Part shown: in pieces, positions 53,272 to 53,406 of the stretch
Numbering within the stretch: position 1 is the stretch's first letter
Layout of the letters: every line of letters starts with the position of its first letter
NCBI RefSeq assembly: GCF_001677475.2
Contig: NZ_CP015229.1
Direction: 5' to 3' (one strand)
Source: Escherichia coli
GTDB taxonomy: Bacteria > Pseudomonadota > Gammaproteobacteria > Enterobacterales > Enterobacteriaceae
DNA length: 64,000 bases
Program-made: the position numbers and the translations under genes
The notes under the pieces: generated by a model
What the model was told of the DNA's origin: nothing
Databases searched by the model: none
The model's input: only the letters and a program-made list of their open reading frames with translations

Positions 53272-53406
53272 TTATCTCCTGACGCCTGGGCAAAAAAAAG
53301 CCCCTCGATTGAGGGGCTGGGAATGGGTGATCAACGGGAAGAAAAACGGCAGGCCAGCGTCTTTTTTCAGACGCGGTAAGACAATATGTCGAACACACTG
53401 AACCAT
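53272..53406 (-). CDS. pyrL: pyrBI leader peptide PyrL (44 aa)
   Basis: MVQCVRHIVLPRLKKDAGLPFFFPLITHSQPLNRGAFFCPGVRR; its 3' end overlaps the attenuator. Confidence 0.85.
   Translation of the reverse strand: MVQCVRHIVLPRLKKDAGLPFFFPLITHSQPLNRGAFFCPGVRR
53292..53317 (-). terminator. pyrBI attenuator (GCCCCTC-aauc-GAGGGGC followed by U8)
   Basis: Hairpin plus eight-T run immediately upstream of pyrB and inside the pyrL coding region. Confidence 0.8.

What the first reader, a model, noticed from the sequence alone, without database searches (positions are those of the whole stretch)
53272..53406. pyrL leader peptide and attenuator
The 44-codon pyrL ORF ends 3 bp before the pyrB start and overlaps a GC-rich hairpin followed by eight T residues. 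This is the UTP-sensitive transcription attenuator, in which a ribosome translating pyrL prevents hairpin formation.
Basis: partly seen in the sequence, partly recalled or inferred. Interest (0 to 1): 0.25.

Follow-up and report, generated by a model that had tools for sequence, protein, structure and literature searches.

The report
E. coli pyrL leader and attenuator
This is the well-known pyrBI leader of Escherichia coli, a short translated reading frame laid over a transcription terminator that lowers pyrimidine-synthesis gene expression when UTP is plentiful; it is ordinary and already explained.

Summary
A 44-codon ORF runs from ATG 53406 to TAA 53274..53272 and ends 3 nt before the pyrB ATG at 53268. 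It runs through an 8-bp GC-rich hairpin (53318..53299) that is followed by T8 (53299..53292).

This is the only strong hairpin-plus-T-run in the whole 64-kb window; dinucleotide shuffles give 0.01 on average. From the promoter to pyrB the DNA matches E. coli K-12 MG1655 except for one base (53385, codon 8 Phe to Ile). That allele occurs in at least 39 public E. coli assemblies and sits in the most variable codon of the leader. The peptide matches Pfam PF08052 and NCBIfam NF007587 far above their cut-offs.

About 100 other Enterobacterales share the same layout. The terminator stem is kept by compensatory changes, and the leader ORF reaches or crosses the hairpin in 90 of 91 species.

It omits two parts: UTP is sensed by polymerase pausing in the U-rich tract upstream of the hairpin, and a second UTP-sensitive control (reiterative transcription at AATTTG, 53424..53419) lies just outside the given coordinates. 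This is already known and of low interest.

The parts
53432..53437 (-). -10 hexamer TATAAT of the pyrBI promoter (called P2 in the K-12 literature)
   Evidence: Sequence read. Identical to K-12. The hexamer is kept in nearly all of 76 aligned leaders. The -35 is weak (TTGCGC), so the consensus scan did not list this promoter.
53419..53424 (-). Initially transcribed region AATTTG. Transcription starts at 53424. This is the site of UTP-dependent reiterative transcription (AAUUUn).
   Evidence: Sequence, 7 nt after the -10 hexamer. PMC7039003 and PMC6524683 give 5'-AATTTG as the pyrBI initially transcribed region, with about 7-fold regulation (citing Liu et al. 1994). TTTG is invariant in 76 leaders, and 67 of 91 carry AATTTG.
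53411..53416 (-). Shine-Dalgarno sequence GGGAGG of pyrL
   Evidence: GGAGG is nearly invariant across 76 leaders.
53272..53406 (-). pyrL leader ORF, 44 codons plus TAA
   Evidence: PF08052 at 115.9 bits and NF007587 at 118.4 bits. Annotated pyrL in K-12 at the aligned position.
53385..53385 (-). The single difference from K-12: T to A on the minus strand (transcript position +40), changing codon 8 from TTT to ATT (Phe8Ile)
   Evidence: No RefSeq complete E. coli genome has an identical pyrL; the best is 99.3%. The exact peptide is nevertheless on record in 39 contigs, and one assembly is identical to the window over 1,335 nt. Codon 8 is the most variable codon between genera, and Ile occurs there in 7 of 63 distinct leaders.
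53354..53376 (-). Conserved upstream hairpin CCGCGUCU-GAAAAA-AGACGC(U)GG, transcript +49..+71, ending 7 nt before the U5 run
   Evidence: Present in the minimum-energy fold. Across 76 leaders 91.8% of cells pair, with U-A/U-G/C-G and G-C/U-A changes. There are 36 sequence variants, and the 7-nt spacing holds in 54 of 89. A role in pausing is inferred from the geometry only; PMC9291695 found no hairpin or NusA dependence of a pyrL pause in vitro.
53333..53346 (-). U-rich tract UUUUUCUUCCCGUU (codons 21-25), the region of UTP-sensitive polymerase pausing
   Evidence: Sequence, identical to K-12. GTTTTTC is present in 74 of 91 leaders. It lies 27-32 nt before the attenuator hairpin in all 89 measured. 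Pausing itself comes from the literature (Donahue and Turnbough 1994, cited in PMC9291695; PMC4824070) and was not tested here.
53299..53318 (-). Attenuator (terminator) hairpin: 8-bp stem, 6 G-C pairs, loop AATC
   Evidence: -15.3 kcal/mol. In 103 species the loop-closing pair is C-G in 70 and U-A in 33, which is a compensatory change, while the loops vary freely.
53292..53299 (-). T8 tract of the attenuator; 23 nt separate it from the pyrB ATG
   Evidence: The run is 8 or 9 T in 98 of 103 species and lies 22 nt from the ATG in 66 of them.
53276..53280 (-). pyrB Shine-Dalgarno sequence AGGAG, inside the last codons of pyrL
   Evidence: GGAG is invariant in 76 leaders.
52333..53268 (-). pyrB, the aspartate carbamoyltransferase catalytic chain; the regulated gene
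   Evidence: TIGR00670 at 417.5 bits; PF02729 and PF00185.
51859..52320 (-). pyrI, the aspartate carbamoyltransferase regulatory chain; second gene of the operon
   Evidence: TIGR00240 at 243.5 bits.

Best explanation
This is the pyrL-pyrBI leader of Escherichia coli, a UTP-sensitive attenuator that depends on coupling of translation to transcription. Transcription starts at AATTTG (53424). A ribosome loads at GGGAGG/AUG and translates pyrL. When UTP is scarce, RNA polymerase pauses in the U-rich tract (53346..53333). The leading ribosome catches up, and it then physically covers the 5' arm of the terminator hairpin as polymerase transcribes 53318..53292. The hairpin cannot form, so polymerase reads through into pyrB and pyrI. 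When UTP is plentiful, polymerase does not pause and runs ahead of the ribosome. The hairpin followed by U8 then forms and transcription stops 23 nt before pyrB. No antiterminator structure and no regulatory protein is needed. A second, independent UTP sensor acts at the promoter: at high UTP, polymerase slips on the TTT of AATTTG and makes unproductive AAUUUn transcripts. What is shown here: the sequence anatomy, its identity with the K-12 leader, and its conservation and covariation across species. What is taken from experiments on the K-12 sequence: pausing, suppression of termination by the ribosome, and the UTP dependence.
For: The anatomy is read directly from the sequence. The hairpin is thermodynamically strong and unique in the window. 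From promoter to pyrB ATG there is one mismatch to K-12 MG1655, and the gene order ridA-pyrI-pyrB-pyrL-yjgH-bdcA-bdcR is the same. 5,424 of 5,426 E. coli genomes carry the sequence, annotated as pyrL. Curated family models match over their full length. In 103 of 115 Enterobacterales loci a GC hairpin plus a run of at least 6 T (8-9 in 98 of them) lies 20-51 nt before pyrB; the stem is kept by compensatory C-G to U-A changes and the loop is free. In 90 of 91 species the leader ORF ends in the hairpin loop or beyond it, although the C-terminal peptide, the reading frame and the stop position all differ. That is what is expected if the ribosome must reach the hairpin and the peptide itself is unimportant. 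Folding with a 30-nt ribosome footprint shows the terminator is lost once the P site reaches codons 26-28, just past the U-rich tract. Literature: PMC5021804 reports an 18-fold drop caused by the pyrL hairpin and the need for tight coupling; PMC4824070 describes pause-mediated coupling in pyrBI; PMC7039003 and PMC6524683 describe AATTTG reiterative transcription with about 7-fold regulation.
Against: Nothing found here contradicts the model. Three caveats apply. UTP dependence, pausing and read-through were not and cannot be measured with these tools. The role of the conserved upstream hairpin in pausing is unsettled, because PMC9291695 found an in vitro pyrL pause about 24 nt upstream of the classical site that neither NusA nor compensatory hairpin mutants affected. 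The window's single substitution at transcript +40 is predicted to strengthen a small hairpin over codons 3-9 (-2.2 to -5.5 kcal/mol), which could in principle shift the set-point.
Confidence: 0.97

Rival explanations
1. The hairpin plus T8 is simply the transcription terminator of the upstream gene yjgH (or a general insulator), and the overlapping 44-codon ORF is incidental.
For: yjgH lies upstream on the same strand and ends at 53686. Any read-through from it would also stop at this terminator. No closer strong terminator was seen; the scan found only weak 5-bp candidates.
Against: A promoter with a perfect TATAAT, a Shine-Dalgarno sequence and an ATG lie between yjgH and the hairpin and are conserved in about 90 species. 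The ORF reaches the hairpin in 90 of 91 species. Published experiments on the K-12 leader show ribosome-dependent suppression of this terminator (PMC5021804 and PMC4824070, citing Roland 1988).
Confidence: 0.01
2. It is a trp/his-type attenuator: a ribosome stalling at particular codons lets an antiterminator hairpin form that competes with the terminator.
For: It shares the general layout of leader peptide followed by terminator. There is a weak sub-threshold match to the Rfam Trp_leader model (19.7 bits against a gathering score of 41).
Against: The Rfam match covers only the terminator hairpin and U run. The leader ORF runs through the terminator instead of stopping before it. No alternative pairing with the terminator's 5' arm appears in the minimum-energy or centroid folds. 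The signal is a nucleotide, not an amino acid, and there is no run of cognate regulatory codons.
Confidence: 0.01
3. In addition to the attenuator role, the PyrL peptide or its N-terminal half has a sequence-specific function, for example as a nascent peptide that modulates ribosome speed or as a free micropeptide.
For: Codons 2-25 show pN/pS 0.66 in the pyrL frame against 1.08 and 1.03 in the other two frames. MVQCVRH and LPFFFP are widely kept.
Against: The bootstrap interval (0.42-1.02) includes 1. The conserved N-terminal codons coincide with nucleotide-level elements (upstream hairpin, U tract). The C-terminal third changes frame, length (33 to 48 aa) and sequence between genera. Many single-residue variants circulate within E. 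coli.
Confidence: 0.05

Closest known systems
E. coli K-12 pyrBI leader (pyrL, b4246) and its attenuator (Turnbough 1983; Roland, Liu and Turnbough 1988; Liu, Heath and Turnbough 1994)
   Same: Everything is the same: promoter, AATTTG start region, Shine-Dalgarno sequence, 44-codon ORF, upstream hairpin, U-rich tract, terminator hairpin, T8, 23-nt spacer, pyrB Shine-Dalgarno sequence and neighbouring genes.
   Different: One base differs (53385; transcript +40 U to A; Phe8Ile). The allele is absent from 5,424 RefSeq complete genomes but present in at least 39 other public E. coli assemblies.
Salmonella, Citrobacter and Klebsiella pyrBI leaders (33-34 codon pyrL)
   Same: The same promoter, start region, Shine-Dalgarno sequence, N-terminal codons, upstream hairpin, U tract, terminator and spacing to pyrB.
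   Different: Their ORF stops at a TGA or TAA that starts in the hairpin loop (52 of 91 species). In Escherichia the loop reads AATC instead of AATT, which removes the TGA and extends the ORF to 44 codons.
E. coli pyrE attenuator (rph-pyrE operon)
   Same: From my own knowledge, not tested here: it works by the same principle, UTP-sensitive coupling of a translating ribosome to polymerase ahead of an intrinsic terminator.
   Different: From my own knowledge: the coupled reading frame is the end of a real gene (rph), not a dedicated leader peptide.
Amino-acid operon leaders (trpL, hisL, leuL, thrL)
   Same: A short translated leader and an intrinsic terminator ahead of the structural genes, with pausing that synchronises ribosome and polymerase (PMC9291695, PMC4824070).
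   Different: Those use ribosome stalling at cognate codons and a competing antiterminator helix. Here the ribosome itself blocks the terminator, and the ORF overlaps it.
PyrR-dependent pyr attenuators of Gram-positive bacteria (Rfam RF00515)
   Same: Pyrimidine-responsive transcription attenuation upstream of pyr genes.
   Different: Those are mediated by a protein (PyrR) binding the RNA. No match to that model was found at E-value up to 10, and no leader translation is involved.

Membership tests
pyrBI (pyrL) translation-coupled UTP-sensitive attenuator of enteric bacteria | A short leader ORF with its own Shine-Dalgarno sequence immediately upstream of pyrB, recognised by the curated PyrBI leader models | tested here: met
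   44-codon ORF. PF08052 at 115.9 bits against a cut-off of 25. NF007587 equivalog at 118.4 bits against 61. pyrB and pyrI are confirmed downstream.
pyrBI (pyrL) translation-coupled UTP-sensitive attenuator of enteric bacteria | An intrinsic terminator (GC-rich hairpin plus U run) just before pyrB | tested here: met
   8-bp stem with 6 G-C pairs, T8, -15.3 kcal/mol, 23 nt before the ATG. It is the only such site in 64 kb, with 0.01 expected from shuffles.
pyrBI (pyrL) translation-coupled UTP-sensitive attenuator of enteric bacteria | The leader ORF extends into or through the terminator hairpin, so that a ribosome can occlude it | tested here: met
   Codons 30-39 encode the hairpin and T run. 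The same holds in 90 of 91 species. Footprint-constrained folding removes the hairpin once the P site reaches codon 26-28.
pyrBI (pyrL) translation-coupled UTP-sensitive attenuator of enteric bacteria | A U-rich tract upstream of the terminator where polymerase pauses at low UTP | tested here: met
   The sequence is present and identical to K-12, and it is conserved in position 27-32 nt before the hairpin. Only the sequence was tested; pausing itself was not.
pyrBI (pyrL) translation-coupled UTP-sensitive attenuator of enteric bacteria | Near-identity to the experimentally characterised K-12 leader | tested here: met
   One mismatch from promoter to pyrB ATG.
pyrBI (pyrL) translation-coupled UTP-sensitive attenuator of enteric bacteria | Termination rises with UTP concentration, and read-through requires leader translation | not testable with these tools
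   Known for K-12 from the literature (PMC5021804 and PMC4824070, citing Roland 1988). It needs in vitro transcription or reporter assays on this allele.
UTP-dependent reiterative transcription at the pyrBI promoter | Initially transcribed region 5'-AATTTG placed at the start site downstream of the -10 hexamer | tested here: met
   AATTTG at 53424..53419, 7 nt after TATAAT. It is identical to K-12 and matches the sequence given in PMC7039003 and PMC6524683.
trp/his-type ribosome-stalling attenuators | An antiterminator helix that competes with the terminator, and a leader stop codon placed before the terminator | tested here: not met
   The ORF crosses the terminator. No competing helix appears in the folds. 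Trp_leader scores only 19.7 bits against 41, on the terminator alone.
PyrR-binding pyr attenuator (Rfam RF00515) | A match to the PyrR binding-site covariance model | tested here: not met
   No hit at E-value up to 10 in 52800..54000.

The most novel reading that the evidence does not exclude
The pyrL ribosome-binding site (Shine-Dalgarno sequence and AUG, transcript +8..+23, window 53417..53402) is complementary to the U/C-rich pause tract (GCCGUUUUUCUUCCCG, +75..+90, window 53350..53335). The two pair in the minimum-energy fold. This pairing could act as a one-shot switch: if polymerase passes the pause tract before a ribosome has loaded, the tract folds back on the ribosome-binding site, blocks late initiation and so locks in termination. 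In this reading the lineage-specific +40 A, which strengthens a hairpin over codons 3-9, would also shift the set-point. The evidence does not exclude this: 95% of cells can pair across 76 species. It does not support it either: there are no compensatory changes and the result is no better than column shuffles.
Probability: 0.08. Interest if true: 0.3.

Novelty: already known. Interest (0 to 1): 0.07.

Why it matters
It matters little beyond correct annotation. This is a standard example of regulation without a repressor, in which RNA polymerase senses UTP directly and a ribosome acts as the antiterminator. The comparative survey made here adds a clear illustration across about 100 species: the RNA elements and the reach of the reading frame are conserved while the peptide's C-terminal third is not. 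That fits the accepted model. The single Phe8Ile / +40 U-to-A allele is a minor natural variant in the most variable codon.

Tried and rejected
**Rfam search.** All 4,227 families were searched at E-value up to 10 over 52800..54000. No family reached its gathering score. The sub-threshold hits (Chlorobi-1, Hrs1, Trp_leader, GcvB and others) all rest on the generic terminator hairpin and A/U run, so there is no curated RNA family for this leader.

**RNAalifold on the MAFFT alignment of 76 leaders.** It mis-registered the attenuator stem because loop lengths of 3 and 4 are mixed, and it proposed a spurious U-run:AGGAG helix. I replaced it with a tabulation anchored on each sequence's own T run and with explicit pair counts.

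**An error of mine.** In one search the Shine-Dalgarno:U-tract helix was entered one column off, so its 57.7% paired figure is meaningless. It was redone correctly (95% paired, no covariation).

**Primary papers.** The primary and review papers (PMC2415746, PMC282141) are not held. Mechanistic statements therefore rest on later open-access papers that cite them.

**Was the Phe8Ile change a sequencing error or private mutation?** This was rejected: 39 contigs carry it and one assembly is identical to the window over 1,335 nt.

**Does the hairpin terminate plus-strand transcription?** On the plus strand it is preceded by A8 and followed by GGGAATGGG, with no T run, so it does not.

**Peptide-level selection.** The pN/pS confidence interval includes 1, so this is not established.

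Full report
**1. The observation**

The feature lies on the minus strand. Reading 53406 to 53272 gives ATG, 43 further codons and TAA. The peptide is MVQCVRHIVLPRLKKDAGLPFFFPLITHSQPLNRGAFFCPGVRR. Three bases (AAG) separate the stop codon from the ATG of a 311-codon ORF (52333..53268), which is followed by a 153-codon ORF (51859..52320). These two are PyrB and PyrI by the curated models TIGR00670 (417.5 bits) and TIGR00240 (243.5 bits).

Within pyrL, codons 30-36 spell AGCCCCTC-AATC-GAGGGGCT (53318..53299) and codons 36-39 spell the T8 run (53299..53292).

- The hairpin alone folds at -15.3 kcal/mol.
- It is present in the minimum-energy and centroid folds of the whole 165-nt leader. That fold is more stable than all 200 shuffles (z = -2.8).
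- A stricter scan of both strands of the entire 64-kb window looked for a perfect stem of at least 7 bp with at least 5 G-C pairs followed by at least 7 T. It found this site and nothing else.
- 100 dinucleotide-preserving shuffles gave 0.01 such sites on average.

**2. What it is**

The 501 bases around the site match 5,424 of 5,426 complete E. coli genomes, where the features under the match are annotated pyrL, pyrB and yjgH. In K-12 MG1655 the gene order mgtA / ridA-pyrI-pyrB-pyrL-yjgH-bdcA / bdcR is the same as in the window.

A base-by-base alignment shows the window is identical to MG1655 from about 70 nt upstream of the -10 hexamer to the pyrB start, apart from one position. That position is 53385, T to A on the minus strand. 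It changes codon 8 from TTT (Phe) to ATT (Ile).

The peptide matches Pfam PF08052 (115.9 bits, cut-off 25) and the NCBIfam equivalog NF007587 (118.4 bits, cut-off 61) over all 44 residues. Rfam holds no family for this leader. Only sub-threshold matches driven by the terminator shape were found.

**3. The single substitution**

No RefSeq complete genome carries an identical pyrL; the best match is 99.3%. The exact peptide is nevertheless on record as 'pyr operon leader peptide [Escherichia coli]' on 39 contigs. One assembly (GCA_031299685.2) is identical to the window over 1,335 nt, and another differs at a single base in pyrB. It is therefore a real minor allele.

Codon 8 is the most variable codon of the N-terminal half between genera (Ser, Thr, Arg, Phe, Ile and others), and Ile occurs there in 7 of 63 distinct leaders.

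The A at transcript position +40 is predicted to turn a weak local hairpin (-2.2 kcal/mol) into an 8-bp hairpin over codons 3-9 (-5.5 kcal/mol). It lowers the predicted unpaired probability of nt 19-33 from 0.61 to 0.35. I regard the allele as probably neutral. This is inference, not a test.

**4. Comparative evidence**

A degenerate DNA pattern for the first 11 codons of pyrB retrieved 120 loci from one-genome-per-species contigs. Most are Enterobacterales: Escherichia, Salmonella, Citrobacter, Klebsiella, Raoultella, Enterobacter, Kosakonia, Kluyvera, Buttiauxella and others.

*Terminator.*
- Of 115 loci with at least 200 nt of upstream sequence, 103 have a GC-rich hairpin followed by at least 6 T within 60 nt of the pyrB ATG.
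- The T run is 8 or 9 in 98 of them, and the distance to the ATG is 22 nt in 66.
- Most of the other 12 have a similar hairpin with a T run 70-136 nt upstream.
- There are 27 distinct hairpin sequences. The loops vary freely (AATC, AATT, TATT, ATTT, TTTT, ATT, GTT and more).
- The loop-closing pair is C-G in 70 species and U-A in 33, a change on both sides that keeps the pair. Some species add a further G-C pair.
- On the 76-sequence alignment, 95.2% of cells in this helix pair, and the closing pair shows 24 double changes.

*Leader ORF.* The ORF that starts at the conserved Shine-Dalgarno sequence and ATG ends in one of three ways:
- at a stop codon that starts in the hairpin loop (52 species, 33-35 codons; the Salmonella type);
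- between the T run and pyrB (17 species, 44-45 codons; the E. coli type);
- in the TAA of ATGGCTAA inside the pyrB start (21 species, mostly 48 codons).

Only 1 of 91 stops before the hairpin. The reach of the reading frame is conserved while the C-terminal peptide, the frame and the stop position are not. That is the expected pattern if a ribosome must arrive at the hairpin and the peptide itself is unimportant.

In Escherichia the 44-codon form exists because the loop reads AATC (C at 53307) rather than AATT, which would create TGA.

*Other conserved elements.*
- The TATAAT hexamer.
- TTTG of the start region (AATTTG in 67 of 91).
- GGAGG and the ATG.
- A hairpin at transcript +49..+71.
- GTTTTTC (74 of 91), lying 27-32 nt before the attenuator.
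- The pyrB AGGAG.

**5. How it works**

The accepted mechanism for the K-12 sequence applies, because the sequence is the same.

*Shown here:*
- The anatomy and its conservation.
- The ribosome-footprint geometry. With a 30-nt ribosome footprint imposed as a folding constraint on the 133-nt terminated transcript, the terminator stays intact while the P site is at or before codon 25. It loses pairs at codon 26-27 and is gone at codon 28. Those codons lie just downstream of the U-rich tract (codons 21-25). A ribosome that has closed up on a polymerase paused there will therefore cover the 5' arm when the hairpin is transcribed.

*Taken from the literature:*
- Tight coupling across pyrL is needed to prevent terminator formation, and the pyrL hairpin cuts downstream expression about 18-fold when coupling is poor (PMC5021804, citing Roland et al. 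1988).
- Pause sites couple translation to transcription in the pyrBI leader, and the terminator is not suppressed at normal UTP (PMC4824070).
- At the promoter, AATTTG supports UTP-dependent reiterative synthesis of AAUUUn, which lowers productive initiation about 7-fold (PMC7039003 and PMC6524683, citing Liu et al. 1994).

*Not shown here:* the UTP dependence of pausing and of termination for this allele.

**6. An open point**

The hairpin at +49..+71 (53376..53354) ends 7 nt before the U5 run in 54 of 89 leaders. It shows U-A/U-G/C-G and G-C/U-A substitutions, with 91.8% of cells paired, so it appears to be under selection as a structure. Its distance from the U run would suit a hairpin-stabilised pause.

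Against that, a 2022 in vitro study found a pyrL pause about 24 nt upstream of the classical one, and neither NusA nor compensatory hairpin mutants affected it (PMC9291695). I therefore label it a conserved upstream hairpin whose role in pausing is plausible but unsettled.

**7. Rivals**

- *A plain terminator for yjgH.* This does not explain the conserved promoter, Shine-Dalgarno sequence, ATG and ORF reach.
- *A trp-type stall/antiterminator mechanism.* This is contradicted by an ORF that crosses the terminator and by the absence of any competing helix.
- *PyrR-type control.* No match to that RNA model was found.
- *A sequence-specific role for the peptide.* This is weakly suggested by pN/pS 0.66 in frame against about 1.0-1.1 out of frame. 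The bootstrap interval of 0.42-1.02 includes 1, and the conserved codons coincide with RNA-level elements.

**8. Something seen in the folds**

The pyrL Shine-Dalgarno sequence and AUG (+8..+23) pair with GCCGUUUUUCUUCCCG (+75..+90) in the minimum-energy structure. Across 76 leaders 95% of cells can pair. However, there is not one compensatory change and the counts equal those of column shuffles. The complementarity may simply follow from a purine-rich ribosome-binding site and a pyrimidine-rich pause tract each being conserved for its own reason. It is recorded as the most novel reading the evidence does not exclude, at low probability.

**9. Verdict**

Two additions apply: UTP sensing occurs at the upstream U tract, and a second UTP-sensitive control sits at AATTTG just outside the stated span. 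The feature is already known and of low interest.

Noticed in passing
window 53385 (minus strand; transcript +40): This is the only difference from K-12 in the whole leader: T to A, Phe8Ile. It is absent from 5,424 RefSeq complete E. coli genomes but present in 39 other public contigs. It is predicted to strengthen a hairpin over codons 3-9 from -2.2 to -5.5 kcal/mol.
   Followed up: yes
window 53261..53410 (minus strand): A second ATG at 53410 directly abuts the Shine-Dalgarno sequence (GGAGGATGTATGG). It opens a 49-codon ORF in another frame that also crosses the attenuator and ends in the TAA of the pyrB start ATGGCTAA. This ATG occurs only in Escherichia and some Citrobacter; other genera have AAGCATGG at that position.
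   Followed up: partly
window 53402..53417 with 53335..53350 (minus strand): The pyrL Shine-Dalgarno sequence and AUG are complementary to the U/C-rich pause tract and pair with it in the minimum-energy fold. 95% of cells can pair in 76 species, but there are no compensatory changes and the result is no better than shuffles.
   Followed up: yes
window 53307 (loop of the attenuator hairpin): The loop base C (AATC) instead of T (AATT) removes an in-frame TGA. This one base accounts for the 44-codon leader of Escherichia against the 33-codon leader of Salmonella and Citrobacter.
   Followed up: yes
window 53354..53376 (minus strand): The upstream hairpin is conserved with covarying pairs and ends 7 nt before the U5 run. 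A 2022 in vitro study (PMC9291695) found no hairpin or NusA dependence of a pyrL pause, so its function remains unsettled.
   Followed up: partly
loci L006, L013, L020, L026, L044, L111, L112, L118 (Acerihabitans, Aquaspirillum, Yersinia, Rouxiella, Erwinia; L111, L112 and L118 not identified): In these more distant species the GC hairpin and T run lie 70-136 nt upstream of pyrB instead of about 22 nt, and no MVQCV-type leader ORF was recognised. The leader architecture seems to differ there.
   Followed up: no
locus L002 1121..1515 (E. coli WP3-S18-ESBL-09); window 53686..54177: In the closest RefSeq complete genome the neighbouring gene yjgH is annotated as a frameshifted pseudogene. The window has an open ORF at the corresponding place.
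   Followed up: no
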